Assembly (NCBI GenBank): GCA_964348895.1 | Contig: CAYGEH010000001.1 | Coordinates: 453,586-517,585, forward strand | Length of the DNA stretch: 64,000 nucleotides | Direction: 5' to 3' | Origin: an uncultured Gammaproteobacteria bacterium | Lineage (GTDB): Bacteria; Patescibacteriota; Microgenomatia; 0-14-0-10-38-17 | In this document: positions 24,024 to 37,575 of the stretch, piece by piece | Layout: each line of letters starts with the position of its first letter | Position numbering within the stretch: the stretch's first letter is position 1 | Translations under genes and position numbers: made by a program | Notes under the pieces: model-generated | Databases searched by the model: none | Seen by the model: only the letters and a program-made list of their open reading frames with translations | What the model was told of the DNA's origin: nothing

Positions 24024-24095
24024 GCCGATGTGGCTCAGTGGCAGAGCACGTCTTTGGTAAAGACGGGGTCATGGGTTCGATTCCCATCATCGGCT
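24024..24095 (+). tRNA. tRNA-Thr (anticodon GGU)
   Basis: Acceptor GCCGAUG/CAUCGGC; anticodon stem CGUCU/AGACG with loop UUGGUAA; T-arm AUGGG-UUCGAUU-CCCAU. Confidence 0.85.
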
Positions 24096-24327
24096 CTAGT
24101 TATTTAAATGTAACAGCAGAGGAAAGATTATTTAAAAAAATTAAGAAATTTAAAACAGATTAGCCTTATTTATTTTTATTTTCTTTGTCTGCTGATTGAA
24201 AGTTGGTTTGTTTTTAGGAAAATTGTAAGATTAACATCTTTTGAGTACTCTAATTACTCTTTAAAATTAGCCGACACTTCGGTTATAAACCTCAATTTTC
24301 TTCTTTTAGAAGCGAATTTTATTTGTT

Positions 24328-24363
24328 ACTTGACATTGATATATTTTTATCGATATAGTTAAG
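24328..24363 (+). promoter_or_regulatory. Sigma-70-like promoter (TTGACA-18 nt-TATAGT) upstream of the small HTH gene
   Basis: 'cTTGACAttgatatatttttatcgaTATAGTtaagagaaggaaag', followed by the RBS AAGGAAAG and the ATG at 24390. Confidence 0.4.
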
Positions 24364-24389: not shown

Positions 24390-24569
24390 ATGGAAGAATT
24401 AAAAACAACCCTTTATACTGTTTCTGAGGCGGCTAAGATTTTGCGTTTCTCTCCAGTAACCCTATATCGCTGGATTGCTCAGGGGAAAATAAAGGTAGCA
24501 AAGCTTGGAACCAGAAGCTATAGAATTAAAAAAAGACATCTGGAAGAGCTGATGGAAAATAAAAAGTAA
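24390..24569 (+). CDS. Small excisionase/AlpA-family HTH DNA-binding protein (59 aa, below the ORF-track cutoff)
   Basis: Hand translation: MEELKTTLYTVSEAAKILRFSPVTLYRWIAQGKIKVAKLGTRSYRIKKRHLEELMENKK. HTH_17-type pattern 'LxTVxEAAxxLxxSxxTLYRWIxxGKI', good RBS, and a stop 5 nt before the giant-gene ATG. Confidence 0.6.
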   Translation: MEELKTTLYTVSEAAKILRFSPVTLYRWIAQGKIKVAKLGTRSYRIKKRHLEELMENKK

Positions 24570-24574
24570 AAGAC

Positions 24575-27394
24575 ATGCTCTGCCCAAAAAACTTCAACAA
24601 TGTAGTTTTAAAAATAAAAAAGCTATTGTCTGGGAACAGGAGCATTTTATTGAAAATAAAACCACAAACAAAGAAAAGAAAAAGAAGCTGTCTAGAGAAC
24701 AAGGGAAGCCTTAAAAAGATATCCTTGATTTTTTCGATTAAGACCTTTAAAAAGAAAAGTTTTACTAGAAAAAAAGTTGATTGCTTTTTTTTACGTGCCC
24801 ACGAGGTCTTTGATCTACTTGGGCGACATTTTGTTATTAAACATAAAACACTAAGACATTCCTCTTGTAATCGCAGAAACAACACTGTTTATAGAAACTT
24901 AAAAAAAAGAAACAACTGGCTGTTTAGTCTTAAAGAAAAAACCCTAAAGGGTTTAAAAATATTTTTGTTGACAACAAAGAATGTTTTTAAAAAATTATTT
25001 CACCTCGCTGTCAACAAGAGTAAGTCTTTATACTATTATATAAAAGAGGGGCGCTTTCGAGAAATTACTCCAGCTTTTGTAGCACACTCGGTACGACGAC
25101 ACTTGCCACTTTTTTTAGCTGTCTTGTTTATTACGCCTGCGGCGATTTTTTTGGGAATTTTTATTTATTCTAGATTAAACCAGCCACCTGCTTATGCGAC
25201 CCCTTTTACTGGTGCAATCAAGATTTCTCGGCAGTCTACTACTCTGTCTACCGACGGTGACTGGCTTACTTCGTTGGCACATTCAGGAGATGGGGTGACT
25301 GGTGACGCCGAGTCAGGAACCTTTAATCCAATTCATCCAGGTGGAACCTCAGATGGCACAGCAGGATCGGGCTTGGCGATTGGCTATATGACGGCTGGGG
25401 CGACAACCTATGCCACTACTGAGTTTATTGGTTTTAGGCCTAGTGCCAACGGAAACTTGACTGGCATAATGCTAGTTTTAGAGAACACCCTGTCTGCTTC
25501 TCGATCGGATGTGGACATAGTGGTTGAATTATTACGTTTTCCTTCAGCCGTTTGCACCACTACTTGCTCTAACTATGTGACTGGCTCTTTAAACTCTTTT
25601 ACCTTTCCAGCAGATACAGAGGTTTTAAGAAGAACTGTCTGGCAGTTTAATCAAGGTTTGTCGGGGGAAAACATGGCACCAGGAAACTTTGGTAGAGCAA
25701 CTTTTGATTTCCGTTTTGATTCGCCGGTAGCAGTAAACACTAGTAGTCATTATGGAATTAGGATTATTAACATGGGGTCAGGAGCACCAGTGTTTGGTGC
25801 GTGGGCAGCCAATGCCCCTTTTGCCAATTTTCCTATAATTAATGGTGCTTTTCGTACAATTGGGGTAAAAAGTATTGACAACGTCAATGCACCAACAGTT
25901 AACATGCCATTGGCTTTGTCTGGTAATAGCGTGATTATTTTAGGAACTTCACCTACACAAAGCTCTGGTATGGTAGCCGGAAATTCACTTGCTGGCGTGG
26001 GCTTGCCGACAATTAGAAGAACGGAGAACGAACATTGGACAGCAACCTATTCTTTAACCAATAACAACTGGACAATTGGGGGTTCAGTTTCTGGAGTTCA
26101 AAACAGAAGATTAACTACAGCGACGACTGGTGGTACAGGGCCGTCTTGGGTTAATGATGGAGTGGCAATAACACCACTGGCTGTTGACTCGGCCGCCTCT
26201 AATCGACTCTGTGTTACTTCAAGCGCTGGTTTTGCTGTTAATCAAACCATTGATCTTTGGGATTCGGACACAGCCACGCTGGGATACACTATTGCCTCAG
26301 TTAATGCTTCAGATGGTAGTTGTCCAGGAAATGGGCCATCAATTATTACCACCGCTGCGACCGTTGTTGGTTACACTGTTAATAAAAATGCCACTGTGGC
26401 CCAGGCGGTTTGGAAACAAAGAATTATCCAGGGGGCGGAAACAGCCTTTTCTCAAAACATGCCAACAACTAGCAAAATCTGTGTAGTTGACGCCTCGCAG
26501 TTTTCTGTTCGGCAGGGGGCAGCAGCTAATTTAGCTATTTGGGACAATAATTCGGTTATTTTGGCAACCAACGCCATTACTGCCATTACCGTTGATGATA
26601 TAGCCTGTGTTAATCCAACTCACGATGGCTTAACCTTAGCCTCTACGATTACCGCCGGAACCTATACAATTGACCAAAACGCTAGAGTAGCAGAAATTTC
26701 TACAACGCTTTCTAATATCGGAACGCCAGCTAATAATGCAACTATGCGCTGGACAACCTTTAATCATACCCAAAACCCAACCGCTTCTCCTCATCTTGCC
26801 AGAACCAGCTCGGTGATGATTGGTTTAGCAAAAAACTTGGCACCGGCCCAATCGGGCGTCAATTACCCCTTTCTTTCTAACAATCATATATTTTTTACAG
26901 CCTACGGCGACGCCAATACCCTGGCTCCAGCCGACGGCGACATTGTTGTTGTGGGAAATGGCAGGCCCGATCCAGACAGTGCTGATTCTCCGAATTTAAT
27001 AGATGATTTAAATTGGTCAGGGAAACAGGAACATGTGATTACTATTGATCGACATTGGAGTGCACCCCTGGTTTATACTGGTTCGTATGGCAGTGCAGTT
27101 TTAGATGGTGCCGGCGCTAGGGCTGATTTTTCCGCTTATTCGCAAAACGCAGGCTGGATTTCGGCGGTGATTGCTCCGAGTTCGCAGTTGCTTTTTGGCA
27201 ATGCCCTAACACTCATTATCGGATTACCATTCCCGGAAAAATTGTTATTGACTCTGATGCCTCTTTGGCTTTTGGGAAACAAGGAGCGGCTATTCCCGAC
27301 TCTTCATTTCAAAACATTTATTTTGACAACGTCAGCCCGGCGGTTTCCACCACGCTTACTACCAACTCTGACACTGGTACGGTGCTTACCGTAA
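24575..27394 (+). CDS. Giant surface protein, N-terminal ORF (frame A). The real reading leaves this frame at ~27.21 kb; sequence after that is out-of-frame read-through
   Basis: Only one in-frame ATG (24575), followed by a ~170-aa K/R-rich stretch over AT-rich DNA, so the true start is uncertain. A TM anchor 'LPLFLAVLFITPAAIFLGIFIY' lies at about 25.10-25.17 kb. T/S/G/A/N-rich ectodomain with repeated 'IWDNNSV...GYTIDQNA' modules that recur in the next ORF. Confidence 0.6.
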   Translation: MLCPKNFNNVVLKIKKLLSGNRSILLKIKPQTKKRKRSCLENKGSLKKISLIFSIKTFKKKSFTRKKVDCFFLRAHEVFDLLGRHFVIKHKTLRHSSCNRRNNTVYRNLKKRNNWLFSLKEKTLKGLKIFLLTTKNVFKKLFHLAVNKSKSLYYYIKEGRFREITPAFVAHSVRRHLPLFLAVLFITPAAIFLGIFIYSRLNQPPAYATPFTGAIKISRQSTTLSTDGDWLTSLAHSGDGVTGDAESGTFNPIHPGGTSDGTAGSGLAIGYMTAGATTYATTEFIGFRPSANGNLTGIMLVLENTLSASRSDVDIVVELLRFPSAVCTTTCSNYVTGSLNSFTFPADTEVLRRTVWQFNQGLSGENMAPGNFGRATFDFRFDSPVAVNTSSHYGIRIINMGSGAPVFGAWAANAPFANFPIINGAFRTIGVKSIDNVNAPTVNMPLALSGNSVIILGTSPTQSSGMVAGNSLAGVGLPTIRRTENEHWTATYSLTNNNWTIGGSVSGVQNRRLTTATTGGTGPSWVNDGVAITPLAVDSAASNRLCVTSSAGFAVNQTIDLWDSDTATLGYTIASVNASDGSCPGNGPSIITTAATVVGYTVNKNATVAQAVWKQRIIQGAETAFSQNMPTTSKICVVDASQFSVRQGAAANLAIWDNNSVILATNAITAITVDDIACVNPTHDGLTLASTITAGTYTIDQNARVAEISTTLSNIGTPANNATMRWTTFNHTQNPTASPHLARTSSVMIGLAKNLAPAQSGVNYPFLSNNHIFFTAYGDANTLAPADGDIVVVGNGRPDPDSADSPNLIDDLNWSGKQEHVITIDRHWSAPLVYTGSYGSAVLDGAGARADFSAYSQNAGWISAVIAPSSQLLFGNALTLIIGLPFPEKLLLTLMPLWLLGNKERLFPTLHFKTFILTTSARRFPPRLLPTLTLVRCLP
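27127..27394 (+). other. -1 frameshift junction between the two ORFs of the giant gene
   Basis: Frame B (codons at position 1 mod 3) opens after a TGA at 27124-27126. Frame A (2 mod 3) runs to a TAA at 27392-27394. Protein-like composition switches from A ('...APSSQLLFGNALT') to B ('HYRITIPGKIVIDSDASLAFGKQGAAIPDSS...') near 27205-27215. Local landmarks are a T5 run at 27192-27196 and, in frame A, the heptamer G_GGA_AAC at 27274-27280, whose -1 slip enters frame B. Confidence 0.6.
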
Positions 27395-30300
27395 CTTCCA
27401 CCTCTGGTTTTAATGTCGGCGATACCATTGTTATTCGCGATAACAACTCGGTAGCGATAACTAGATTGGTTGCTGCGATTGAAAATGCTACCCAGATTAG
27501 GGTAACAGCCGCGTTGGTTGCTGGCTATACGATAGATCAGAGTGCTTTTGTTGCCAAGGGCCCAACCACAGAATTACCTACTGGTGCTGATCGTCGAGCC
27601 GGAGTTTATACTATGACCGGCTTAATTGGAACAACACAAACCAACTTTCGGGTTGGTCGAGTAAGCTTGTATGGTCAGGGTTCAGATAGTTTTAGGACAA
27701 TGAAAAGTAATTTAGCAGTTGATGTTGAGGGTGATATTAATACTGGTTTCTTGGGAAACAATCTAACTGACTCTGGTAACACTTGGGTTGATGTTAAAGA
27801 CAATGTGGTGGGGAATTGGCAACCCCTAGATAGCATTGCTGTAGGTGGTGCCACTAATCAACTAGCGGACAACGAATTTTCTTCGATGAGAATGGGGGGA
27901 ACAGATGATGCTAACCAAATGCCAGTTTGGACTGGTCTTTTAACTGCTGGAGGCAGAAACGCCCTGCCAACCCCCAACATGGAGGTGGCAGAAATTGGAA
28001 CAATTCCCCTAACCGATATTTATAATAGTAATTTTAATGCTGGTTCGTCACTTTTTTCTTCTAATTACAACAATTCTAGTGTCTGGACGATTTTTGGCGA
28101 TGGTGCTAATAACGAAGTTAGCGATATGGTTTATTTTGGTGATCGGGGAAACAACATGTTTTATTCTTTAGAATTTAATCTTGGTATAACCATGGTGGCC
28201 AACGCTTCTTATGTTTGGGAATTTTGGAACGGAAGCGCTTGGCAAGGATTTACTCCTCGAGATGCTTATAGATATGAACCAAGAACGGACTACTGCATGC
28301 CACTTTCTGCTAATACAATTAGAAATTCTTTTACTCTGACTGTTCCCGAAGGTGGCACAAATTTTGGCTTAGATCAAATTGTGGCTATTAGCGACAATGA
28401 TTCGCCGAGAATTTTTCGAAGATTGGGAACTAGCGCTCCTTCTTCCACCACTTTGACTTTTTCTGAACCCCTGCCGGCTGGTTATGACACTGCTCAAGGT
28501 GCTCGAGTTTGTCGTTTAAGTGGCGGTCGCTGGATCGCCTTTGATCCAGCGAATATTTTTACAGCCAACACTGGTCGAAGAATTTTGAGTTGGACGCCAT
28601 CAAATTTGGGTAACGCGCCAGCTAGAACAACAGTTAATGGTGTGAACGCTTTTTGGGTAAGAGCGAGAATATCTACCCTTACTTCTTGGGAAGTCAATCC
28701 GGCTAATCAAACCACTCCAGTTAGCATGAGTGGATTAGAAAGAATTTCTTCTGGAGCTATTACGATGAGCTCTGGAGTACAAGAAGCTAAAATTACCGAA
28801 ATCACCCCTGGTTCGCTTTATAATCCCAACGAACAGTGGACCCTGGAATATGGCAATTCACCGGGATGGATAGAAACTATTCGTGGGGCTGCGGTTGGAC
28901 CACTTTCAGCCCCCTACCTTCATCGTGTTTCTGGAGGAGTTCTTAATTTTAGTCCTACCAACGTTCAAAACTGGTCAGTTCACAATAGCAATGTCCCTTT
29001 GGGCACAACAGACTATACAATGAGTGCTTTGGTTAGAATGGATATGCCAGCAGACGCCACTAGTCGTCGCTTAGGGCTTTTAATGCGTCAAAGCCTAGAC
29101 GGTGATGGCTATGCTGCTTTAATTACAAAAACTGCTTCTGTTAACACCGTTCAGTGGTGGACAACGTTAGCTGGTGTTCCCACCGCCATTGGTTCAGCAA
29201 CTTCTAAAACCTTTGATGTTGACACTTGGTATTGTTTAAAGGCAGAGGTTATCGGAACAACATTAAGAGCTAAATTTTGGGCAACAACGGATTGTGCTGT
29301 TGGAGAGCCAGGACCCTGGGATGTAACCGTTATCAATACTACTTATACTAATGGTCGAATTGGCCTTTATACTGGTTCGGCGACAGCCTCTCAGGGGGCA
29401 AGGGCAATGTTTGATCAGGTTTCTGTTATTGGCGGGGCTAATTTTTCTGATAACTTTAGTGATACTCAAACTTGGAGGGTAGAGGGTTCTATCCAGGGTT
29501 TAATTGGTGCAGCCACTCCGGGGACACCGTTTGCCAGCAATTTTATTAATTTTACTATAAAACATAGGGGCGGCTGGAATGGAGTGGTCAGCCCAGAAAT
29601 TGGCGATAAGATTTATTTAACTTCAACCGCTATTCGTAGTTATAGAGGACTAGATCCTTCGGTGCCGATTGTCACCAATAACAATAACACTAAATATGAG
29701 GTTTGGGATTTTGAATGGACTGGTTCGGCTTATGCGGTTACAGGGAGTGCTTCTGGCGCAGCAGGGACAGCTATCCCAGGCTTGACTTACACTGCTCCCA
29801 ACAATCAAATTTCTTTAAGAATAAACCCAGGAGCCCCCACGGCAACAAGGTTTGGCAACAGAATGCTTTTATTACAAGACAACCTTTTGCGCAGCAATGG
29901 CTCTTGGACTGGAGTAAATGGGATAGGAAGTGCGGCCTTGTTTTACCCTAGTTATACTTTAACAGGCAGTCCGGTTGCTACCCGCTACAACATTGAGGGA
30001 CAGAGTGGTACAGCCAATGCTCGACAACGAGGCACGATTGATTTTTGGTTTAAAACTAACTACGAGGGTAGCCCTTCTTCTGTAACTAATTCAGAAGGAA
30101 TGTATTTAATTGATTATGCTAATCAGGGTAACACTGACCGCCTGTTTGTTAGACACACCTCCGAAGGCTTTTTAGAAGCATCAATTTGGGCAGGTGCCAC
30201 TCAGGGACCGATTTTACGACAAAGCTTTTCTGCTGAGGCTGGTCGCTGGTATCATTTTCGCTTAGTGTGGTCCGAAGACGCCACTCCAACAATCCACAGA

Positions 30301-33300
30301 AGAGCTTGGCTTGATGGAACACCCTTTTCTATAAACCAAGGAAGCTCTCTTGCGGCGCGTGGTATTAATGCAGGGTTAATAAGAATAGGCAATAACTGGA
30401 CTTATAATGCGGCTTTTGATGGCGCCATTGACGAATTGGCTATTTTTGATGAAGATCTTGACACTTCTGGCGCTTGTAACTGGGGATCGTTTACTGTTCC
30501 TGCTTCGCCCTGGCTTGGGGCTGAAACCATTGGCTGTGCTGCCGACAGAAGCGGAATTAATATTTTTCGGGCTAGTTTTGATTCTGCCATGAACCCGCAG
30601 GAAGGGTTTATTTGGGCCGACTATGCATATGGGAACCCAGCTGTGATTTTTACCAATGGTGCAGATACAGGAAACGAGAGATTTAGAATAATTACTTATC
30701 CCGAAAGAACCCGTGTTTGGATAGATAATACTGGTGAAAAGTATACGCCTTCAGCCAGAATTAAATATGGTTCTGGTCATCTTGAAAACAATGCCCTGAC
30801 AACATTAGCTGGCTGGTCTCATAATTTTACTTTCCACCACAAGGCGGCCCGTGATTCAGAAACTAATCCGACTCATTCGCCAGTTTTAAATTTGAGGCGT
30901 AGTATTCATATTTGGTCTGAGGAAAACTTTACTTATACTGGGGCTACGACTGGTGCGCCGATCAATTCTGGTTTAGGTTTTGGTTTAACCGCAGTCGGTC
31001 TTTCTGGTTTGGCCAACATGAACATTAGCCATTTGTCGATGGAGAATCAGTTTAGTAATTTTTCCATTATGACGAACCCCTTTACTTCGATCAGACCATT
31101 TCCCAGCCAAGTTATATCTAAATCAGTTTTTTACAATTACTTTGATCGGGCTTACACGGTTTCTGCCAAAACCCAGGGTTCTAATTATGTTGGTGCCTAT
31201 TTTGTGACGACTAACTTTGCTGCAGCCAACATTGGTACAGGTTATAATGCTTCCGCCTCGCAAAACGTTGGCATTGATGGGAGTATTTTTATGGGTCACC
31301 GAAACAGTTTTGTCACTGTGCCCCCAGCAGCGGCAAATGGTGCGGCAGCGTTTTTCTCTGGCCGTCTTTACACTATTCGTAATAGCGAATTTCATAATAA
31401 TGGTATTTCTGGTTCAGGCACCACAGGGGCACTGAACTTCAGTGCTGGTGTAGCGAAATTGACCATTGAAAATAACATTTTTTCTATCAATACCAATGGA
31501 GTTCGGCTTTATGGTAATTCTTTTGTTGATCTTGCCAATAATGTCTTTGACGGTCATGTTTCTGACGATGTAATCACTGTTGCTGGTGGATATGGTTCTG
31601 GTATCCGTTCCGCCCAATCTTTCTCCTCGGTGTTTGTTAGAGACACTGGGAGTGTTTTGGGTCGAGGATTATGGAATGAGGCTGATATTAATTTACCTCC
31701 TAATACCGCCACTTTTGAGGCAGAATCAATGTTGCAGTTTATTGGTGAGGGCACATCTTTGTTTAGTCCGATTTTGTTTGGAACAGTGGATTATTTGAAT
31801 ATGGGACGAGTGCCAGAAGAATATTTTCACACGACAATTCCAGGAACAGAGATTCGGCTTGGTTCTGGCAAAGATATTGTTAATTTGACGACTTTCGGCA
31901 ACATGCGCACCACTGGCGGAGGCTTATCGGACACAACTGTTCGCACAAGTGGTGGTTATGCTTGGCGACTAGACCCTCGAAGTTCTGATGTTGCCCTAGA
32001 TTATACCGCTAAAGTAGTAGGCGTAGCTGGAAAGCCCCTGGCTGTTACTGGCTATTTACGAATTAACGAGGACTATGGATCTTCTGGTTTACCAACAGTA
32101 ACGCTTTCTGGATTGGGAATGGCAGGGCCAAATTTGACTTGGACGGCCCAAGCTTCTTCTAATGTTTGGCAGCAATTTGTGGTTTCTGGTACGCCAACAG
32201 AATCAGCCCTAGCCGAAGTGAAAATAAGCGTTAGTCTCGAGGGTGTGGTGGTGGCCGATTCTGGTACAAGTCAAATTATTGCTAATCCGATAGGTAATTA
32301 TTTGCCAGCCTTAGTTGAAGATGTTAATAAATCTTGGAGACCAAACCAGTGGGTTGGATTTTTAATGAGAGACAGCAACGGTAAGATTTTTGAAATTGTT
32401 AGAAACACCGGTCAGCTTTTGTATGTGAAGGGGATTGTAGCACCACACCTTTTAAGTACTACTTTTACTGCGGCAACTCCGGGAGACTATATTATTTTTC
32501 GTCAACCAATGGTTTATTTAGACGATGTTTCAGTTTTGTCTGGAACGGTTGACACAGGCACCCTAGACTTACATATTGCTGGTCAACCGGTTTCACCTTG
32601 GCTTGCGACTGGTCTGACTGCCGAATCAGTTTGGAGTGCTCAATATGGTGTTTTTGCTGATATTACTGGCTCTTTTGGTCAACTTATGCAAGATGCCCTG
32701 GTTGCTCGGTATGCCAATGTGCTTGATCCCTCGCCAACCACAATTTCTTTTAACACCAACTTAACGGCCTCTGCTGATGATTTTTATAATGAAGGAGTAA
32801 TTATATTCACTGAAGGTCAAAACAGGGGAGTGGTAAGGCGCATTTCTGCTTACGGTGGTGCCAGTAAAACCATTACCATTGCTCCGCCTCTTCCTTTTGC
32901 TCCGAAAAATGGGGACAGATTTGCCGTTTTGGCCGCAACTAGCTTTTCGGCCGGTGGTACTGGTGGGGCCAGTGCGGCGGAAATTTGGAACTATGCTGTT
33001 AGATCTCTAACGGACGCCACCCTAAACTCTGGCAGTTTAGCAACGAGTTTTGACATAGCAGCGATTCAATCTAGTCTAACTACAATTTTGTCCCAAACCA
33101 ATAACATTGTGGCAATAAAAACAAAAACAGACACGATTAATTGGGCCGACATAATCGGACTTATAACTACCACAGGTCAAATTAGGGCCAAGACCGACAC
33201 AATAAATTGGAGCGACATTTCCGCTGTTAAAACCAGAACTGACACAATAAACTGGAACGATGTTACTGGTATCAAATTAAACACAGACACAATTGTTTGG

Positions 33301-36300
33301 GGAGATATTACAGCAATCAGAAATAATGTTGCCACTCTAATTAGCGAAATAGGTGTTGGCAATATTGCAGCAATCAGAACCAAAGCCGAGACCATTTCTT
33401 GGGGAGATATTACTGGGCTAGTAACGACATCAGGGCAAATTAAAGAGAAAACTGACACCATTAATTGGGCAAATGTGGTAGCAATAAAAACAAAAACAGA
33501 CACGATCGCTTGGGATGATGTTACTGGTATTAAGGTTAAGACAGACACGATCGCTTGGGGCGATATTGGTGTTTTACAATCTTCAATAAATTCTTTAAAT
33601 AATATTTCTGCCACTGACATTTGGGCTTATGCGACAAGAACCATAACTGGCGAAGTGGTGCTAACCGCGGATTCAAGACGAGCTATTTGGGACACAGCCT
33701 GTGCCATTCTGAATACCTCTGGTAGTGTTGGAAAACAAGTTTGTGACAATCTTGACACAACTATTTCTTCTCGCTCAACTTTAACCGCGGCCCAAGTTTG
33801 GGCTGAGGCAACCAGAACTATCACTGCCCTAGAAAGCCCAGCCCTAGCTGCAATTGCTAACAATGTTTGGAGTAACGCCACAAGAGCTCTGACTTATTAT
33901 GGCAACGATATAACAGCCCAGCAGGTTTGGAGTGTTTTGACTTCTTCTTTAACAACGATTGACTCTATTGGTAAGCTTTTGGTAACCAATGTTGACGAGA
34001 CGATCTCTTCTCGTTCCAGCCAGGAAAGCTTGGATGTTTTATCAGAAAATGTTGCAACCACCTCTGCTTTAATTGATGCTCCAATATCTTCTCGAGCCGC
34101 TCAGTCGAGCTTGGACGACCATGAAGCGGCAGAGTCAGCTTTTAGAACTCAAACGACCAATACCTTAGGATCAATGACCATTAATATTGCCGCTATCTTG
34201 ACCCAGCTTTCAAATATTGAAACTAAAATTAATACAATTCAATCAACTTTAGCCGTTATGGACGGCAAGTTAAACATTATTGACGCCAATGTAACTAGCG
34301 TCAAAACAACGATTGAAGACACTAATATTAAGGTTACGGCGATGCAAACGGTAACCAACAATATTTTAGCTAAGTGGGGAAGCTATAACGCAACAACGAT
34401 TCTTGGCTATGTTGATGCTTTAGAGGCCAACTTGGGGGATCCCAATGACCCAACGTCTTCGGCCACGGTTTTTGGCAAACTTAATTATCTTAAACAAAGT
34501 GGTGCTGGTGGCGGCGCTGGTGGCGGTGGCGGCGGCATGATCGATTTAGTTTATGCTCAAGCCCAGTCAACCCACACTAAACTTTTAGAGGTTCAAACAG
34601 AGCTTGGATTCAATGGTAAATCCACAAACGCCTATGATGAAATGATTGCTGTTAAGGGTTATGTTAATGAGATTGAACTATCCTTGTCGACACTAGATTT
34701 AAATACTTCCGCAATTACCGCTTCTGTTACTAATGTTTCTAACGACCTAAGAGCTGTTACTAATAAAATTGGCAAGGTTAATGTTGACTCTCTCGCCCCT
34801 CTTTTTGAGGTGCAAAGAATGGACATTGACTATTTGAAAACTAAAATGGTTGAACTAAAAACAGTTGCGGACATTAATCGTCAGCTTTTGGAAAAAACAG
34901 TTAATCAGCCGATTGTTAAGGTGATTATGGAATGGGGGTCGGTAATTATTAAGTTTGTCATCGTTAACCCTTCGGACTCAGTTACCCAAACAATTCCGTT
35001 TAAGGCCTTTTTACCCAAAGAAGTCAGACAAGAGTACATTATAGACCTTGGTGGGTTGATGCTCAACTATGATGCGACAACAGAACAGTATTATGTAACA
35101 GCAGAAATTACTCTAGAAAAGGGCGAATCAGTTATTAGAAGTGTGAAAATTAAAGACATTTGGGTTATTTCTGAAGATGAAATTGCCTCTTTGCGTCAAC
35201 AGGCGGAAGATCTATATGAAGGATTAAAAAAGACCCCCTATAGCGCTCAGGCCTTGATTTTAAGAACTGATATTAACACCAGATTGGACAGAGTCGTTAG
35301 AAAACAGAAAGATGGCAGATCTACTCCACAGGAGCATATTTTGGCTTATCGAGAAAACGCTGAAGATATGAAAGCAATTAATGAAAACATTAAGGGTCTT
35401 AAGGATTTGGTTTTAACCTCTGGGGTTGGGAGTAACTTTTTGGCCTCAATTGGTGGTATTCAAACATTTGCGACATGGGGTATTGTTTTAGTTTTAATTT
35501 TTGGTATGGGAACTTTAGGAATGTTTTATTATCAATTGTGGCGAAGAAAGGTAGTTACTGTGAGTAGCGAAACTAGAAAAAAAACAAAAAAAATAGAAAT
35601 ATCAACACCATCGCCATTTATGCTTCCTGGATTTGACTTAGCTTGGTTGAAAAAAATTCTTTTCGGTTGGTTAATTTTAATAAGAGATATTTTTGCCAAT
35701 TTGATTCGACTGATCAAGCTCTTTAATTTTCAAACAAAATCAACGACCACCAAAGCAAAAATAACACAGAAAACACTAATTGTTTTTTTAATGATGGGGG
35801 GAACTGTGGTTGCAATTATCAGCGGAATAGTGGTAACGCGAAACTTTTTGAAAAAAAATCAAGACCAGAACACAGAGACAAGGGTGACGACTTCGATGCC
35901 TAATTCAACCTTAGTTGCCACCAGAGAGGAAAGAGTCGAAGTCCTAGTTGCGGAAATGATCGAAAGGGCAACTGAAAAAAAAGAAACCCACGAAAGGATT
36001 GAGGAGCTGACAAAAGAGTCAGAAGAGGAAGGAGTTTTGAGGGCTACTTTTGAATATCAACAATTACTGGTAATTAAGCAAACACCGAACGGTTGGGTTG
36101 ATGTTCGACAAGAACCCTCTTTGTCAGCAGAAATAATTACCAAGGTTTATCCTGGGGAAAGTTATCCTTTCTCTGAAACAGAAGGAGAATGGTATAAGAT
36201 ACTACTCAAAGACTTGACTGAGGGATGGATTCCGGCCAAGTTTGTAAAACCGGAAGAGAAAATAACAAATGCTGTTGGCGATATCTTTGTGGAAATTATT

Positions 36301-36486
36301 CCTCCGGAAGGAGGCGGAGTTAATATTCGCCAGTCGGCTGATAAGGAAAGCAAAATTATTAAGACTGTTTATGTCAAGAACAAATATCTCAAGCTGGGAG
36401 AAGAGGGTGATTGGATAAAAATTGAGCTATTAGGTGGAAAGGCAGGCTTTGTTTTTAAAGAATTTATTCAAACGATAAGCGAATAA
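27265..36486 (+). CDS. Giant surface protein, main ORF (frame B, 3,073 aa from an in-frame TTG; the frame is open from 27127). Contains lectin-like jelly-roll domains, a parallel beta-helix, tandem repeats, coiled-coil-like sequence, poly-Gly, TM helices and two SH3b domains
   Basis: DUF1080/ConA-like region at about 28.9-29.4 kb ('YTMSALVRMD...GYAALI...DTWYCLKAEVIGTTLRAKFW...GRIGLYTG'). LamG-like region at about 29.97-30.45 kb ('GTIDFWFKT...RWYHFRLVW...FDGAIDELAIFDEDL'). Parallel beta-helix at about 31.37-31.68 kb ('LTIENNIFSINTNGVRLYGNSFVDLANNVFDG'). A 15-aa repeat array at 33.11-33.58 kb, poly-Gly at 34498-34536, TM helices at ~35.45 kb and ~35.8 kb, and two SH3b-like domains at 36.08-36.47 kb. 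Confidence 0.7.
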   Translation: MAFGKQGAAIPDSSFQNIYFDNVSPAVSTTLTTNSDTGTVLTVTSTSGFNVGDTIVIRDNNSVAITRLVAAIENATQIRVTAALVAGYTIDQSAFVAKGPTTELPTGADRRAGVYTMTGLIGTTQTNFRVGRVSLYGQGSDSFRTMKSNLAVDVEGDINTGFLGNNLTDSGNTWVDVKDNVVGNWQPLDSIAVGGATNQLADNEFSSMRMGGTDDANQMPVWTGLLTAGGRNALPTPNMEVAEIGTIPLTDIYNSNFNAGSSLFSSNYNNSSVWTIFGDGANNEVSDMVYFGDRGNNMFYSLEFNLGITMVANASYVWEFWNGSAWQGFTPRDAYRYEPRTDYCMPLSANTIRNSFTLTVPEGGTNFGLDQIVAISDNDSPRIFRRLGTSAPSSTTLTFSEPLPAGYDTAQGARVCRLSGGRWIAFDPANIFTANTGRRILSWTPSNLGNAPARTTVNGVNAFWVRARISTLTSWEVNPANQTTPVSMSGLERISSGAITMSSGVQEAKITEITPGSLYNPNEQWTLEYGNSPGWIETIRGAAVGPLSAPYLHRVSGGVLNFSPTNVQNWSVHNSNVPLGTTDYTMSALVRMDMPADATSRRLGLLMRQSLDGDGYAALITKTASVNTVQWWTTLAGVPTAIGSATSKTFDVDTWYCLKAEVIGTTLRAKFWATTDCAVGEPGPWDVTVINTTYTNGRIGLYTGSATASQGARAMFDQVSVIGGANFSDNFSDTQTWRVEGSIQGLIGAATPGTPFASNFINFTIKHRGGWNGVVSPEIGDKIYLTSTAIRSYRGLDPSVPIVTNNNNTKYEVWDFEWTGSAYAVTGSASGAAGTAIPGLTYTAPNNQISLRINPGAPTATRFGNRMLLLQDNLLRSNGSWTGVNGIGSAALFYPSYTLTGSPVATRYNIEGQSGTANARQRGTIDFWFKTNYEGSPSSVTNSEGMYLIDYANQGNTDRLFVRHTSEGFLEASIWAGATQGPILRQSFSAEAGRWYHFRLVWSEDATPTIHRRAWLDGTPFSINQGSSLAARGINAGLIRIGNNWTYNAAFDGAIDELAIFDEDLDTSGACNWGSFTVPASPWLGAETIGCAADRSGINIFRASFDSAMNPQEGFIWADYAYGNPAVIFTNGADTGNERFRIITYPERTRVWIDNTGEKYTPSARIKYGSGHLENNALTTLAGWSHNFTFHHKAARDSETNPTHSPVLNLRRSIHIWSEENFTYTGATTGAPINSGLGFGLTAVGLSGLANMNISHLSMENQFSNFSIMTNPFTSIRPFPSQVISKSVFYNYFDRAYTVSAKTQGSNYVGAYFVTTNFAAANIGTGYNASASQNVGIDGSIFMGHRNSFVTVPPAAANGAAAFFSGRLYTIRNSEFHNNGISGSGTTGALNFSAGVAKLTIENNIFSINTNGVRLYGNSFVDLANNVFDGHVSDDVITVAGGYGSGIRSAQSFSSVFVRDTGSVLGRGLWNEADINLPPNTATFEAESMLQFIGEGTSLFSPILFGTVDYLNMGRVPEEYFHTTIPGTEIRLGSGKDIVNLTTFGNMRTTGGGLSDTTVRTSGGYAWRLDPRSSDVALDYTAKVVGVAGKPLAVTGYLRINEDYGSSGLPTVTLSGLGMAGPNLTWTAQASSNVWQQFVVSGTPTESALAEVKISVSLEGVVVADSGTSQIIANPIGNYLPALVEDVNKSWRPNQWVGFLMRDSNGKIFEIVRNTGQLLYVKGIVAPHLLSTTFTAATPGDYIIFRQPMVYLDDVSVLSGTVDTGTLDLHIAGQPVSPWLATGLTAESVWSAQYGVFADITGSFGQLMQDALVARYANVLDPSPTTISFNTNLTASADDFYNEGVIIFTEGQNRGVVRRISAYGGASKTITIAPPLPFAPKNGDRFAVLAATSFSAGGTGGASAAEIWNYAVRSLTDATLNSGSLATSFDIAAIQSSLTTILSQTNNIVAIKTKTDTINWADIIGLITTTGQIRAKTDTINWSDISAVKTRTDTINWNDVTGIKLNTDTIVWGDITAIRNNVATLISEIGVGNIAAIRTKAETISWGDITGLVTTSGQIKEKTDTINWANVVAIKTKTDTIAWDDVTGIKVKTDTIAWGDIGVLQSSINSLNNISATDIWAYATRTITGEVVLTADSRRAIWDTACAILNTSGSVGKQVCDNLDTTISSRSTLTAAQVWAEATRTITALESPALAAIANNVWSNATRALTYYGNDITAQQVWSVLTSSLTTIDSIGKLLVTNVDETISSRSSQESLDVLSENVATTSALIDAPISSRAAQSSLDDHEAAESAFRTQTTNTLGSMTINIAAILTQLSNIETKINTIQSTLAVMDGKLNIIDANVTSVKTTIEDTNIKVTAMQTVTNNILAKWGSYNATTILGYVDALEANLGDPNDPTSSATVFGKLNYLKQSGAGGGAGGGGGGMIDLVYAQAQSTHTKLLEVQTELGFNGKSTNAYDEMIAVKGYVNEIELSLSTLDLNTSAITASVTNVSNDLRAVTNKIGKVNVDSLAPLFEVQRMDIDYLKTKMVELKTVADINRQLLEKTVNQPIVKVIMEWGSVIIKFVIVNPSDSVTQTIPFKAFLPKEVRQEYIIDLGGLMLNYDATTEQYYVTAEITLEKGESVIRSVKIKDIWVISEDEIASLRQQAEDLYEGLKKTPYSAQALILRTDINTRLDRVVRKQKDGRSTPQEHILAYRENAEDMKAINENIKGLKDLVLTSGVGSNFLASIGGIQTFATWGIVLVLIFGMGTLGMFYYQLWRRKVVTVSSETRKKTKKIEISTPSPFMLPGFDLAWLKKILFGWLILIRDIFANLIRLIKLFNFQTKSTTTKAKITQKTLIVFLMMGGTVVAIISGIVVTRNFLKKNQDQNTETRVTTSMPNSTLVATREERVEVLVAEMIERATEKKETHERIEELTKESEEEGVLRATFEYQQLLVIKQTPNGWVDVRQEPSLSAEIITKVYPGESYPFSETEGEWYKILLKDLTEGWIPAKFVKPEEKITNAVGDIFVEIIPPEGGGVNIRQSADKESKIIKTVYVKNKYLKLGEEGDWIKIELLGGKAGFVFKEFIQTISE
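33112..33580 (+). repeat. In-frame tandem repeat array (about 9 copies of a ~45-nt / 15-aa unit 'KTDTINWxDVTGIKx', with occasional longer spacers)
   Basis: 'gcaataaaaacaaaaacagacacgat' recurs at 33112 and 33481, and 'acagacacgatcgcttgggg' at 33497 and 33541. Protein: KTDTINWADI.../KTDTINWSDISAVKT/RTDTINWNDVTGIKL/NTDTIVWGDITAIR.../KTDTINWANVVAIKT/KTDTIAWDDVTGIKV/KTDTIAWGDIGVL. Confidence 0.8.
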
Positions 36487-36980
36487 ACAACCTGGTTATA
36501 TAAGAAATGAACAAACATCGCCAAAAAGGTTGCTGGAAAGACTAACTGCTGGTTTTGTCGACTAGGCAGAAAAATAATTAATCCTGTTAAGGCATGTAGG
36601 GTTGTAGTCAAAATAAATCTTTGCCAAAAACTGTAAAGAATGCCGTCAGCAATGAAGTTTGTCAGATAAAACATGTTCTCAGAAAAAGCAAAGAGAAACA
36701 ACATCATTAATGTTATCTTTAATTGATTTTTTCTTGAGGAAAACTTGAGAATTTGTAAAATAAGGATTGCTTTAACAATTTCTTCAATTATAAAAAAATG
36801 AGAAACAACTCTTCCCAGAGGAATAAGAACAAGGGGTAGGACTAGAGCTATAAGGCAAACTAAAAAGAGAACTGACGATTCATGGTTTTCTTTCTCCATG
36901 AATTTAATATACCAAAAATAAACAAATAATTTTTCAAAATAAGCGTTTTGTTCGTCTTTGTTTTTTGTAATTATACTCAT
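36468..36980 (-). CDS. CPBP/PrsW-superfamily intramembrane metalloprotease-like membrane protein (CAAX-protease/Abi-like)
   Basis: 170 aa, 4-5 TM, with a motif-1-like 'IIEEIVKAIL', 'TTLHALTG' and 'FVHFLYNQ' (HxxxN). Convergent with the giant gene, overlapping its end by 19 nt. Confidence 0.4.
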   Translation of the reverse strand: MSIITKNKDEQNAYFEKLFVYFWYIKFMEKENHESSVLFLVCLIALVLPLVLIPLGRVVSHFFIIEEIVKAILILQILKFSSRKNQLKITLMMLFLFAFSENMFYLTNFIADGILYSFWQRFILTTTLHALTGLIIFLPSRQNQQLVFPATFLAMFVHFLYNQVVYSLIV

Positions 36981-37202: not shown

Positions 37203-37376
37203 ATGGCTAAAAAAGGCAATAGAGTTTTAATTGGGCTGGTTTGTCCTGCCTGCAAAAACAGAAACTATATTACTCAAAAGAATAAAGTTAACTTGCCAGA
37301 AAAGTTAACAATAAAAAAATACTGCCCCAAATGTGTCAAGGCGACTGTTCATAAAGAAACGAGCAAGTTAAAATAA
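37203..37376 (+). CDS. rpmG: 50S ribosomal protein L33 (57 aa, below the ORF-track cutoff)
   Basis: Hand translation: [57 protein letters not shown]. Zinc-ribbon CxxC...CxxC and 'RNYI..KNK.N.PE...KKYCP' match L33. The RBS AGGAGGGG sits 6 nt upstream. Confidence 0.8.
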
Positions 37377-37415
37377 TCAAAGAAAGAGAGCCATTTTAAG
37401 GTTTGGGGAAAAAAT

Positions 37416-37487: not shown

Positions 37488-37575
37488 CAAGCATCTTATT
37501 TATTTAGAGGAAAAATATTTTTATTAAGAAAGAAGAAAACTATTTTTTTGAAAATATTTACTTTGTTGAACCCTG

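What the first reader, a model, noticed from the sequence alone, without database searches (positions are those of the whole stretch)
24390..36980. ~13 kb accessory block: one giant (~3,800-4,000 aa) multidomain surface protein gene next to a tRNA cluster
Everything between tRNA-Thr(GGU) (ends 24095) and rpmG (37203) is non-housekeeping. The block begins with a 59-aa excisionase-like HTH gene under a strong promoter. It is followed by one huge gene (24575..36486, two ORFs) and a convergent CPBP-type membrane protease. The giant protein is predicted to have an N-terminal TM anchor, three or more 'IWDNNSV...GYTIDQ' modules, two ConA/LamG-like jelly-roll lectin domains, a parallel beta-helix, a 15-aa tandem repeat array, a long coiled-coil-like S/T/A/N-rich region, a poly-Gly hinge, two more TM helices and two C-terminal SH3b domains. 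Proteins of this size and build in small-genome bacteria are typically adhesins or host-contact (episymbiosis) factors. The combination seen here is not a named family.
Basis: partly seen in the sequence, partly recalled or inferred. Interest (0 to 1): 0.85.

Follow-up and report, generated by a model that had tools for sequence, protein, structure and literature searches.

The report
Giant phage-fibre-like surface protein, frameshifted
A tiny-genome (Moranbacteria) bacterium spends about 12 kb on one membrane-anchored, roughly 3,970-residue surface fibre, built partly from phage tail-fibre-type modules and paired with a small membrane protease; the gene lies at different tRNA junctions in related genomes, and in this strain a one-base deletion breaks it in two.

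Summary
Window 24390-36980 carries an HTH_17 gene behind a near-consensus promoter, one giant gene and a convergent small membrane protease.

- **One gene, broken.** The two giant ORFs are a single gene split by a 1-nt deletion in a C-run (27204-27206). The repaired product is 3,970 aa.
- **Domain calls.** These are the N-terminal TM anchor, four ~70-aa modules, two LamG-like jelly rolls, a beta-helix (by homology), a 15-aa repeat array, a coiled coil, a poly-Gly hinge, two C-terminal TM helices and two SH3b domains. The "CPBP" protease scores as PrsW-like.
- **Family.** It is an uncharacterised family found only in Moranbacteria (28 further clusters, 14 GTDB species loci), 42-66% identical over its full length. 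That is more conserved than neighbouring housekeeping proteins.
- **Partner.** The PrsW-like gene is the constant neighbour.
- **Phage link.** The stalk shares a Phage_BR0599-like barrel and a W-motif fibre segment with hundreds of viral-contig proteins.
- **Position.** Relatives have tRNA-Thr(ggt)-rpmG-tRNA-Trp contiguous. Another genome carries the block between tRNA-Arg and tRNA-Pro, which are adjacent here. There is no integrase and no att repeat, and the gene's GC tracks each host.

Best reading: a cell-anchored, probably trimeric, glycan-binding fibre for external contact, probably inactive in this strain.

The parts
24330..24359 (+). sigma-70-like promoter TTGACA-18-TATAGT upstream of the HTH gene
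   Evidence: 11 of 12 matches. No terminator-like site was found between here and the giant gene.
24390..24569 (+). 59-aa HTH_17 (MerR/excisionase-type) DNA-binding protein, 5 nt upstream of the giant gene
   Evidence: Pfam HTH_17, E 7e-17. PHROG excisionase/regulator families; not conserved next to the giant gene in other genomes.
24575..27205 (+). Giant gene, 5' part (rep aa 1-877). It covers the K/R-rich cytoplasmic tail, TM1 (nt 25109-25165), N-terminal beta domain, and modules m1 (26177-26410) and m2 (26450-26698). The ORF runs out of frame to a stop at 27394.
   Evidence: AF2 model: all-beta, mean pLDDT 55.6.
27204..27206 (+). Frameshift site: a CCC run where homologues require one more base (1-nt deletion)
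   Evidence: the frame changes between ...FGNA and PNTHYR... The lesion is identical in independent Logan and ENA assemblies. One search returned no intact allele close to this strain.
27205..36486 (+). Giant gene, 3' part (rep aa 878-3970)
   Evidence: 100% identical to P0001 and 42-66% identical to 3,500-4,400-aa single-ORF homologues.
27346..28527 (+). Modules m3 (27346-27564) and m4 (28339-28527) flanking a conserved 257-aa domain with no known relatives
   Evidence: reciprocal HMM hits among m1-m4; no PDB relative; m4 against the BR0599-like barrel, hhalign P 1e-4, probability 56%.
28891..29448 (+). First LamG/ConA-like jelly roll (rep 1440-1625)
   Evidence: pLDDT 75-92; tandem LG-pair and CBM66 matches. 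No Pfam hit, and no hhalign similarity to the second LamG.
29941..30513 (+). Second LamG-like domain (Pfam Laminin_G_3)
   Evidence: E 1.6e-11, 45 bits against a cut-off of 27.6..
31183..31650 (+). Probable right-handed parallel beta-helix (rep 2204-2359)
   Evidence: Pfam Beta_helix above cut-off in P0026 and P0029 at aligned positions; short-strand DSSP pattern, pLDDT 55-80. The window's own segment gives no hit.
32524..32949 (+). Most conserved stretch of the protein (rep 2651-2721, 70% mean identity) plus the Phage_BR0599-like barrel (rep 2722-2792, nt 32737-32949)
   Evidence: (BR0599 in 10 of 13 members, best E 3e-21); 5,807 distant relatives; abundant in viral contigs.
33106..33588 (+). 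15-aa repeat array KTDTINWxDIxxI (7 strict copies plus degenerate ones)
   Evidence: The array length varies from 0 to 368 aa among homologues. There is no DNA-level tandem repeat.
33604..34053 (+). W-motif fibre segment (IWxxAxRxLT / GSxGKxL..N.D..ISSR)
   Evidence: HMM hits viral ORFs L066 (E 6e-25) and L095 (E 2e-9).
34054..34908 (+). Coiled-coil stalk with a poly-Gly hinge (34504-34536)
   Evidence: DUF7310 and FlaC-type hits; reovirus sigma-1 tail at E 3e-5, trimeric autotransporter fragments and viral HR1. Its length varies among homologues.
34909..35457 (+). Conserved membrane-proximal beta-rich and helical region (rep 3446-3628)
   Evidence: 57-63% identity and fixed length; no PDB or viral relatives for this part.
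35467..35835 (+). TM2 (35467-35523), basic cytoplasmic loop, TM3 (35779-35835)
   Evidence: KD hydropathy peaks of 1.9 and 2.55. The loop has K+R 16 against D+E 4; the segment after TM3 is acidic.
36061..36483 (+). Two SH3b domains, predicted to be extracytoplasmic
   Evidence: SH3_3, two stretches, E 2.8e-19; matches the SH3 end of a phage amidase family. Topology.
36468..36980 (-). PrsW-like (CPBP/PrsW superfamily) small membrane protease. It is convergent, overlaps the giant gene's end by 19 nt, and is the conserved partner.
   Evidence: PrsW-protease, 31.5 bits against a cut-off of 23.5; adjacent to the giant gene in 14 distinct other loci; invariant EE..K, SEN.FY, R....H..T and H..(Y/F)N.
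24024..24096 (+). tRNA-Thr(ggt), left boundary of the insertion
   Evidence: directly followed by rpmG in five related loci.
37203..37488 (+). rpmG and tRNA-Trp(cca), right boundary

Best explanation
The block encodes a two-gene system that appears confined to Moranbacteria (CPR/Patescibacteria). It consists of a giant cell-surface fibre and a small PrsW-type membrane protease.

**Predicted build of the fibre (inferred from sequence).**
- An N-terminal signal-anchor (TM 179-197, basic tail inside) drives export of about 3,400 residues.
- The C-terminus holds the protein on the cell through two TM helices. An acidic linker then carries two peptidoglycan-binding-type SH3b domains outside the membrane.
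- Next to the membrane is a stalk whose length varies among homologues. It is made of coiled coil with a Gly hinge, W-motif fibre repeats, a 15-aa repeat array and a Phage_BR0599-like barrel. These are module types otherwise found in virion structural proteins of uncultured phages.
- Beyond the stalk is a ~2,600-residue all-beta head of fixed-length domains. It includes four ~70-aa barrel-type modules, two LamG-like lectin domains and a beta-helix.

**Most likely function (inferred).** It behaves as a probably trimeric head-stalk-anchor fibre that presents glycan-binding, and possibly glycan-cleaving, domains to external surfaces. For an organism of this lifestyle the likely targets are a host cell envelope or extracellular polysaccharide. 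The partner protease would process or release it.

**What is shown.** The architecture, the family, the conserved partner, the sharing of stalk modules with viral-contig proteins, and the variable chromosomal position at tRNA junctions.

**State in this strain.** A 1-nt deletion splits the gene after residue 877. No nearby start codon exists for the 3' part, so the fibre is probably not made intact here.
For: - **One gene with a single lesion:**
- **Topology:**
- **Domains:**
- **Family of 3,500-4,400-aa single ORFs restricted to Moranbacteria/Patescibacteria:**
- **Head domains of fixed length at 48-70% identity, stalk variable in length:**
- **Giant protein 60% identical between the window and L002, while LeuRS, M16, NDK and WecG are 33-41% identical:**
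- **PrsW-like gene adjacent in 14 distinct other loci, with invariant catalytic-type motifs:**
- **Stalk module found in 5,807 proteins and 365 IMG/VR stretches.** Examples include contigs with terminase, portal and major head genes, with the module gene inside the structural module in L053.
- **Multi-LamG phage structural proteins are the best viral fold matches:**
- **Insertion at tRNA junctions:**
Against: - There is no expression, localisation or binding data.
- Both AF2 models are of low overall confidence (mean pLDDT 55.6 and 61.9). The N-terminal 680 residues gave no meaningful fold match.
- Trimer formation rests on weak coiled-coil profile hits, which may be compositional.
- If TM1 is not cleaved, the protein is tethered at both ends, and 'distal head' is then the wrong picture.
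- Very high conservation is unusual for adhesins, which usually diverge fast. Cell-wall genes are frequent neighbours, which fits a structural envelope role equally well.
- The frameshift means the gene may have no function in this strain.
Confidence: 0.5

Rival explanations
1. Envelope scaffold. The giant protein is a structural component of the cell's own wall or surface layer rather than a contact or adhesion device. In this picture it is a wall-spanning fibre or spacer held by SH3b domains on peptidoglycan and by the TM helices.
For: - It is more conserved than housekeeping neighbours, and its head domains have invariant lengths.
- The SH3b pair is predicted to lie outside the membrane.
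- A class-A beta-lactamase/PBP-like gene accompanies the block in 11 hit loci (9 distinct genomes).
- MreB, MreC, PBP2, PBP1, FemAB and Mur ligase genes lie within a few kb in the window, L002 and L003.
Against: - The gene carries a frameshift here, and apparently in L002 too. That is hard to reconcile with an essential wall component.
- LamG lectin domains, a beta-helix and phage-fibre modules are typical of proteins that recognise foreign surfaces.
- The beta-lactamase-like partner is absent from this 64-kb window.
Confidence: 0.25
2. Recently inactivated pseudogene. In this strain the block is a dead gene, and the two ORFs produce no functional fibre.
For: - A single-base deletion lies at 27204-27206.
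- The lesion is identical in independent assemblies, and no intact allele close to this strain was returned.
- The first Met codon in the 3' frame is about 137 codons downstream.
- A signal-less 3,000-aa N-terminal ectodomain could not be exported (inference).
Against: - Apart from this one lesion, 11.9 kb remain free of stops. The event is therefore very recent, or the reading frame is still under selection.
- Read-level heterogeneity was not examined.
- A low level of frame correction cannot be excluded.
Confidence: 0.5
3. Mobile island or prophage remnant. The block is a mobile genomic island or defective prophage fragment integrated at a tRNA, with the HTH_17 gene as its excisionase and the giant gene as a tail-fibre cargo.
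For: - It is inserted exactly between tRNA-Thr(ggt) and rpmG, which are adjacent in five relatives.
- The same block lies between a different tRNA pair in L002.
- HTH_17 matches PHROG excisionase families.
- A 15/16-nt inverted copy of part of tRNA-Thr sits at the giant gene's start codon.
- The stalk modules are shared with phage proteins.
Against: - The block has no integrase, recombinase or other phage gene.
- No direct repeats flank it.
- The HTH gene is not conserved with the block.
- The giant gene's GC follows host GC across 13 genomes, 0.38-0.58.
- No member of the family was found in IMG/VR or in cultured phages.
- The head domains have no viral relatives among 2,878 viral ORFs.
Confidence: 0.12
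4. Deliberate frame change. The shift is a programmed -1 ribosomal frameshift or a phase-variation switch that controls production of the full-length fibre.
For: - The needed shift is -1.
- The lesion lies in a short homopolymer (CCC).
- An A5 run (GGAAAAAUU, about 27235-27243) lies 30 nt downstream within the 270-nt frame overlap.
- A second family member (L002) also carries a 1-nt frameshift, at another position.
Against: - There is no canonical X XXY YYZ heptamer at the site.
- Runs of 3-5 nt are far too short for efficient slippage or phase variation (established knowledge).
- All the other complete homologues fetched, apart from L002's own 1-nt lesion, are single ORFs through this position, with the same number of residues.
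Confidence: 0.05

Closest known systems
Phage tail-fibre / virion structural proteins carrying Phage_BR0599-type barrels (Pfam PF09356) and multi-LamG receptor-binding arrays
   Same: - The barrel module with its preceding W...GSFG..L segment recurs 2-6 times in thousands of 300-1,600-aa proteins. These include 365 stretches in IMG/VR contigs, some of which carry terminase, portal and capsid genes.
- The W-motif fibre segment hits viral ORFs at E 6e-25.
- The best viral fold matches are large multi-ConA/LamG phage structural proteins.
   Different: - It is chromosomal, with no phage genes around it.
- It has membrane anchors instead of a virion-attachment domain.
- Its polarity is reversed: the globular array is N-terminal and the attachment end is C-terminal.
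- It is about 4,000 aa long.
- The head domains, the 15-aa repeat and the membrane-proximal domain have no viral relatives in the loci examined.
Head-stalk-anchor fibrous adhesins (trimeric autotransporter adhesins such as SadA/YadA; reovirus sigma-1 attachment fibre)
   Same: It has a globular head, a repetitive and coiled-coil stalk of variable length, and a membrane-proximal anchor. Its coiled-coil profile hits the sigma-1 tail (E 3e-5) and trimeric autotransporter fragments.
   Different: There is no YadA-type beta-barrel translocator. The anchor consists of alpha-helical TM segments plus SH3b domains in an organism thought to lack an outer membrane. The similarity is limited to coiled-coil character.
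Giant surface proteins of ultra-small or predatory bacteria (Omnitrophota giant genes, doi 10.1101/2023.11.21.568195; large surface proteins proposed for symbiont-host contact, PMC6792436)
   Same: It is a very large, membrane-anchored, multidomain extracellular protein in a reduced genome, for which contact with other cells is the usual proposal.
   Different: It is a different lineage and a different domain set. The giant-gene preprint does not mention Moranbacteria, Patescibacteria or SH3. Here there is a defined conserved partner gene and a phage-fibre-type stalk.
PrsW / CPBP (type II CAAX) membrane protease superfamily, for the 170-aa partner
   Same: It scores above Pfam's PrsW-protease cut-off. 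The motifs EE..K, SEN.FY, H and H..(Y/F)N are invariant across 15 orthologues.
   Different: It is much shorter than B. subtilis PrsW: only profile positions 52-174 of 196 are matched. Its substrate is unknown, and no anti-sigma factor lies nearby.

Membership tests
Laminin_G_3 / ConA-like lectin domain (PF13385) | Pfam score above the gathering cut-off | tested here: met
   45.0 bits against 27.6, E 1.6e-11 (rep about 1817-1962). Also found in 6 of 13 family members.
Laminin_G_3 / ConA-like lectin domain (second copy, rep 1440-1625) | Sequence or fold match to a LamG/ConA jelly roll | tested here: inconclusive
   There is no Pfam hit and no hhalign similarity to the first LamG. However, the AF2 domain has pLDDT 75-92, and Foldseek aligns the pair to laminin LG4-5 (E 4e-9) and single domains to CBM66 (TMt 0.8).
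Right-handed parallel beta-helix (PF13229) | Pfam score above cut-off in this protein | tested here: not met
   the window segment gives no hit at E<=1. Homologues P0026 and P0029 pass (40-42 bits against 25.9) at positions aligned to rep 2204-2359. The assignment therefore rests on homology.
Bacterial SH3 (SH3_3, PF08239) | Pfam score above cut-off, two copies | tested here: met
   69.5 bits against 27, two stretches. Found in 12 of 13 members.
Phage_BR0599 (PF09356) | Pfam score above cut-off | tested here: inconclusive
   The window scores 21.3 bits against 22.9. Ten of 13 family members match at E<=0.5 (best E 3e-21), and P0026 scores above the cut-off (43.6 bits). A family-derived HMM hits 85 viral ORFs.
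Phage tail fibre / receptor-binding protein | Encoded within a phage structural gene module | tested here: not met
   The neighbours are tRNAs, rpmG, Wzy, MreB and the like. No family member was found in IMG/VR or in cultured phages.
Phage tail fibre / receptor-binding protein | N-terminal virion-attachment domain and C-terminal receptor-binding tip | tested here: not met
   The N-terminus is a basic tail plus a TM helix. The C-terminus is two TM helices plus SH3b domains.
Trimeric autotransporter adhesin | C-terminal YadA-type beta-barrel anchor | tested here: not met
   There is no such Pfam hit. The C-terminal anchor is alpha-helical TM segments.
Fibrillar surface adhesin (export signal + stalk repeats + binding domain + cell anchor) | Export signal, repetitive stalk, recognised binding domain and cell-surface anchor all present | tested here: met
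   All are sequence predictions.
Fibrillar surface adhesin | Demonstrated binding to a surface or ligand | not testable with these tools
   This needs recombinant domains and glycan or cell binding assays.
tRNA-associated integrative genomic island | Tyrosine or serine recombinase in the element | tested here: not met
   Only the HTH, giant and PrsW-like genes lie between 24096 and 37203.
tRNA-associated integrative genomic island | Direct repeats (att) derived from the tRNA 3' end at both borders | tested here: not met
   the scans, run separately within each border region, found no tRNA-derived direct repeat; the two borders were not compared with each other. They found only a 15/16-nt inverted copy of an internal tRNA-Thr segment at 24569-24584.
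tRNA-associated integrative genomic island | Variable presence at the locus among relatives | tested here: met
   five relatives have tRNA-Thr(ggt)-rpmG-tRNA-Trp contiguous; the block sits at the tRNA-Arg/Pro site in L002, and that site is empty in the window.
tRNA-associated integrative genomic island | Composition foreign to the host | tested here: not met
   gene GC is 0.38-0.58 and follows flank GC of 0.32-0.59 in 13 genomes. GC3 in the window gene is 0.35.
PrsW / CPBP membrane protease | Pfam score above cut-off and conserved catalytic-type motifs | tested here: met
   31.5 bits against 23.5; invariant EE..K, SEN, H and H..(Y/F)N in 15 orthologues. Proteolytic activity was not tested.
Excisionase (Xis) function for the HTH_17 gene | HTH_17 fold plus a cognate integrase | tested here: not met
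   HTH_17 is met (61.8 bits). No integrase is present in the block. A second HTH_17 gene in the window (14686-14874) also stands alone.

The most novel reading that the evidence does not exclude
Moranbacteria may have permanently domesticated a phage fibre / receptor-binding apparatus as a cell-anchored organelle for recognising and breaching the surface of a host cell. On this reading it is a 12-13 kb two-gene cassette (fibre plus a dedicated PrsW-type processing protease). It is kept under stronger constraint than housekeeping proteins, relocates between tRNA junctions without a recombinase of its own, and is switched off in some populations by single-base frameshifts.
Probability: 0.2. Interest if true: 0.8.

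Novelty: new variant of a known kind. Interest (0 to 1): 0.55.

Why it matters
How CPR/Patescibacteria with sub-megabase genomes find and hold on to other cells is largely unknown outside Saccharibacteria. This gene takes up an estimated 1.3-1.7% of such a genome, based on contigs of 691 kb and a 945-kb chromosome.

- It is conserved across a whole lineage more tightly than aminoacyl-tRNA synthetase neighbours, and it has a constant protease partner.
- It reuses stalk modules that are otherwise abundant in virion proteins of uncultured phages.
- That makes it a concrete, testable candidate for the contact machinery of Moranbacteria. It is also an example of exchange of fibre parts between phages and cells.
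- The natural frameshift alleles offer built-in loss-of-function comparisons.

If it turns out instead to be a wall scaffold, it would be an unusual envelope component for a lineage whose envelope is poorly understood.

Tried and rejected
- **Tandem Repeats Finder at DNA level** found only the poly-Gly tract. The 15-aa array is old and diverged.
- **PDB profile searches** of rep 200-480, 1000-1440, 1430-1780 and 2140-2560 gave nothing usable.
- **Single-sequence PDB search of the fibre region** gave only sub-threshold coiled-coil hits.
- **PHROGs on the giant protein** gave only weak 'tail assembly' (E 1.6e-4) and amidase-SH3 hits.
- **tblastn against 50,697 cultured phage records** found nothing, whether with the fibre region or with two distant module proteins.
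- **The whole-family scan of IMG/VR** found no member.
- **The AF2 model of rep 200-877** was too poor (mean pLDDT 55.6). Its Foldseek matches are not meaningful (top E about 1e-3, TM about 0.1).
- **hhalign tests** for internal duplication among the large head domains, and for LamG#1 against LamG#2, were negative.
- **Apparent frameshifts in L009 and L013** turned out to be scaffold N-gaps; L013 also has a G7-run artefact.
- **Cluster names** of distant module proteins were uninformative.
- **Literature searches** for this family, for BR0599 biology and for CPR giant proteins found nothing specific. One broad search was wasted.
- **Raised GC as a sign of horizontal transfer** was considered and rejected, because it follows host GC.

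Full report
**1. What is in the window**

Between tRNA-Thr(ggt) (24024-24096) and rpmG (37203-37376) there are only three genes.
- A 59-aa HTH_17 protein at 24390-24569 (Pfam E 7e-17). It sits behind a near-consensus promoter, TTGACA-18-TATAGT, at 24330-24359.
- Two long same-strand ORFs, 24575-27394 and 27265-36486.
- A convergent 170-aa membrane protein at 36468-36980. It scores as PrsW-protease (31.5 bits against a cut-off of 23.5), not as a CPBP model.

GC rises to 0.43-0.46 over 26-34 kb against about 0.38 for the rest of the window.

**2. The two ORFs are one gene with one lesion**

- ORF1 residues ~100-900 align to the N-terminal parts of homologues that are single ORFs of 3,500-4,400 aa.
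- blastx across the junction shows the frame changing between ...SSQLLFGNA and PNTHYRITIPGK....
- At 27204-27206 the sequence reads CCC. One more C restores a junction with exactly the number of residues seen in the homologues.
- The repaired product ('rep') is 3,970 aa with no other stop.
- The lesion is not an assembly accident of one data set. Contigs from a Logan assembly of ERR3094288 and from ENA ERZ27247794 are 100% identical to the window over 12 kb, including the shift.
- The protein search returned the truncated product at 100% identity. The next hit is only 59% identical, so no intact allele close to this strain was returned.
- The first Met in the 3' frame is ~137 codons downstream.
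- There is no canonical slippery heptamer at the site.
- I therefore read this as a recent inactivating mutation.
- Frame correction or phase variation remains a low-probability alternative.
- One other genome (L002) also has a genuine 1-nt frameshift, near residue 215. The apparent breaks in L009 and L013 are runs of N.

**3. Architecture of the repaired protein**

*Membrane topology, from hydropathy and charge*
- A K/R-rich tail covers residues 1-175 (47 K+R against 7 D+E).
- A strong TM helix follows at 179-197.
- Moderate and strong TM helices lie at 3632-3650 and 3736-3754.
- These two helices are separated by a basic loop (16 K+R against 4 D+E).
- An acidic linker follows TM3.
- This predicts that residues ~198-3631 and the two C-terminal SH3b domains (SH3_3, E 2.8e-19) are outside the membrane.
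- A conserved A-x-A motif just before the first conserved ectodomain residues (…PAYA|TPFTG; invariant A9/F12) could be a signal-peptidase site. This is inference only.

*The head*
- There are four mutually homologous ~70-aa modules: 535-612, 626-708, 925-997 and 1256-1318.
- Several conserved domains have no Pfam or PDB sequence relatives.
- A Laminin_G_3 domain scores 45 bits.
- A beta-helix region passes Pfam's cut-off in two homologues at aligned positions, rep 2204-2359. It does not pass in the window's own sequence.

*Structure prediction*
- An AF2 model of rep 1430-2560 has mean pLDDT 61.9, with domains at 75-92.
- It gives confident jelly rolls for both 1440-1625 and the Pfam LamG region.
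- Foldseek aligns the pair to laminin LG4-5 (E 4e-9) and single domains to CBM66 (TMt ~0.8).
- In the viral structure library, the best matches are large multi-ConA/LamG proteins of uncultured Caudovirales and cyanophages.
- The model of rep 200-877 was poor (pLDDT 55.6), and its fold matches are not meaningful.

*The stalk*
- The most conserved stretch of the protein is 2651-2721, at 70% mean identity.
- Next comes a Phage_BR0599-like barrel at 2722-2792.
- Then a 15-aa repeat array with 7 strict copies of KTDTINWxDI.
- Then W-motif repeats, then coiled coil with a Gly12-type hinge.
- A conserved membrane-proximal region completes it.
- A profile of 3330-3640 hits trimeric coiled coils in the PDB: reovirus sigma-1 tail at E 3e-5, trimeric autotransporter fragments and viral HR1. 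This is suggestive of a trimer but may be compositional.

*Conservation pattern across the family*
- The head domains keep almost invariant lengths, at 48-70% identity.
- The repeat array (0-368 aa) and the coiled coil (139-482 aa) vary in length, as expected of a spacer.

**4. The family and its partner**

- The search found 28 further clusters, all giant. Where sources give a name, it is Candidatus Moranbacteria.
- A pattern scan of GTDB species genomes found 14 loci. The Moranbacteria/Patescibacteria names are plausible. Some depositor names, such as 'Gammaproteobacteria', look like pipeline defaults.
- Members have been in GenBank for years (for example KKQ13942.1), named 'hypothetical', 'SH3 domain-containing' or 'NLP/P60'. 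I found no paper on them.
- The upstream context differs in every genome.
- The HTH_17 gene accompanies the giant gene only in the window.
- The PrsW-like gene lies at the 3' end in 14 distinct other loci. A Beta-lactamase2 (class-A/PBP-like) gene joins it in 11 hit loci (9 distinct genomes) but is absent from this window.
- The PrsW-like proteins share invariant EE..K, SEN.FY, R....H..T and H..(Y/F)N. These are the motif types of the PrsW/CPBP glutamate-zinc protease superfamily (my knowledge of that superfamily). A catalytically competent processing enzyme is therefore plausible, but it is untested.

**5. The phage connection**

- An exhaustive profile search with rep 2550-2800 found 5,807 proteins at E<=1e-3.
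- Beyond the family itself, the matched part is a ~115-aa unit. It consists of a 'VWDE..SGH..GSFGK.LRQ' segment followed by the BR0599-like barrel. It is repeated 2-6 times in proteins of 300-1,600 aa.
- A pattern scan of IMG/VR confirmed 365 stretches.
- L024 carries terminase, portal and major head genes.
- In L053 the module gene lies between the major head gene and a 1,326-aa virion structural protein.
- HMMs built from the family hit 85 viral ORFs with the barrel and two viral ORFs with the W-motif fibre segment (E 6e-25 and 2e-9). The head domains, the 15-aa repeat and the membrane-proximal domain hit none of 2,878 viral ORFs.
- hhalign gives a weak in-register link between head module m4 and the barrel (P 1e-4, probability 56%).
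- So part of the stalk is built from parts shared with phage virion proteins.
- The giant protein itself is cellular. No family member occurs in IMG/VR or in cultured phages, and there are no phage genes nearby.

**6. Is it an island?**

*For a mobile or inserted block*
- In five related metagenome loci found through the neighbouring Wzy/TPR gene, tRNA-Thr(ggt) is followed within 5-650 nt by rpmG and then tRNA-Trp. In the window they are 13.1 kb apart.
- The flanks of the giant gene in L002 are syntenic with window 1-14.9 kb: LeuRS, ComEA, a Lactamase_B protein, M16, NDK ... PEGA protein, MreB-like, WecG, HTH.
- In L002 the block sits between tRNA-Arg(cct) and tRNA-Pro(cgg). Those tRNAs are 86 nt apart, with nothing between them, at window 11209-11442.

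*Against a classical island*
- There is no recombinase.
- There are no tRNA-derived direct repeats. The only trace is a 15/16-nt inverted copy of an internal tRNA-Thr segment across the giant gene's ATG.
- The gene's GC follows its host's over the range 0.38-0.58.

*Conservation*
- The giant protein is 60% identical between the window and L002, and PrsW is 52%. The syntenic housekeeping proteins are only 33-41% identical.
- With ameliorated composition, this points to strong purifying selection rather than recent transfer.
- The region also shows an inversion of fmt-def-Wzy relative to the relatives.

My reading is a long-resident, lineage-typical cassette that has been moved by recombination at tRNA clusters.

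**7. Mechanism and rivals**

*Preferred model (confidence ~0.5)*
- It is a head-stalk-anchor surface fibre.
- The anchor is two TM helices plus wall-binding SH3b domains.
- The stalk is probably trimeric, of phage-fibre type, and adjustable in length.
- The large head presents lectin-like and beta-helix domains to foreign surfaces.
- The PrsW-like protease processes it.
- Architecture, family, partner and module sharing are shown. Oligomeric state, ligand, cleavage and biological role are inferred.

*Main rival (0.25): an envelope scaffold*
- For: extreme conservation, the SH3b domains, the beta-lactamase-like partner, and neighbouring cell-wall genes.
- Against: the natural frameshifts.

*Other readings*
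- A classical island or prophage remnant (0.12) and a programmed frameshift (0.05) are unlikely, for the reasons above.
- Independently of these, the copy in this window is probably non-functional (~0.5).

**8. Verdict**

- Its 'accessory island' reading is half right. The position is variable and the block is inserted at tRNA junctions, but the gene is lineage-conserved and ameliorated.
- The function remains a hypothesis.
- It is an uncharacterised family and a new variant of the known kind 'giant fibrillar surface protein of reduced-genome bacteria'. Three features are new here: a phage-fibre-type stalk, a constant PrsW-like partner, and conservation exceeding that of housekeeping neighbours.
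- Interest is moderate to good (0.55).

Noticed in passing
window 24569-24584 versus 24040-24055: The 16 nt spanning the giant gene's start codon (AAAGACATGCTCTGCC) are a 15/16 inverted copy of an internal segment of the adjacent tRNA-Thr(ggt). My rough estimate is about 0.005 such matches by chance in this 900-nt region. It may be a scar of recombination at the tRNA.
   Followed up: no
window 20160-23705 and 39080-40150; loci L101, L107, L108, L127, L128: Five relatives have the order MreB(-), Wzy/TPR, def, fmt ... tRNA-Thr, rpmG, tRNA-Trp. Relative to them, the window has fmt-def-Wzy inverted and MreB on the far side of the block. The neighbourhood is a rearrangement hot spot.
   Followed up: partly
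window 14686-14874 (-) and L002 30464-30736: A second small HTH_17/MerR-like gene is 82% identical between two genomes whose neighbouring housekeeping proteins are only 33-41% identical. It is 40% identical to the HTH gene upstream of the giant gene.
   Followed up: no
window 37576-38948 (-): Two ~225-aa proteins lie directly after tRNA-Trp, one with fn3 / purple-acid-phosphatase-N domains and one with a cohesin domain. They are further candidate surface proteins next to the block.
   Followed up: no
L005 25238-32459: In another Moranbacteria genome, a tyrosine integrase, a LysM/CHAP hydrolase, TrbL and a T4SS pilin gene lie 3-10 kb downstream of the giant gene / PrsW / beta-lactamase-like block. 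This may be a conjugative element beside it.
   Followed up: no
L002 9354-10010 / 10001-21151: The giant gene of this genome is also split by a 1-nt frameshift, at a different position (near residue 215, not in a homopolymer). It could be a real lesion or an assembly error.
   Followed up: partly
Loci L001, L002, L004, L005, L009, L012, L015, L016, L021: A Beta-lactamase2 (class-A/PBP-like) gene travels with the giant gene and the PrsW-like gene in most genomes. It is missing from the whole 64-kb window.
   Followed up: partly
P0029 residues 2649-2718: One family member ends in a Peptidase_M32 fragment (E 1.6e-26). This is probably a chimeric or truncated contig rather than a real fusion.
   Followed up: no
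P0126/P0178: A protein made of the same W-segment + barrel modules is deposited from a Candidatus Hodarchaeales (Asgard archaeon) MAG. The module is therefore spread far beyond bacteria, or beyond their phages.
   Followed up: no
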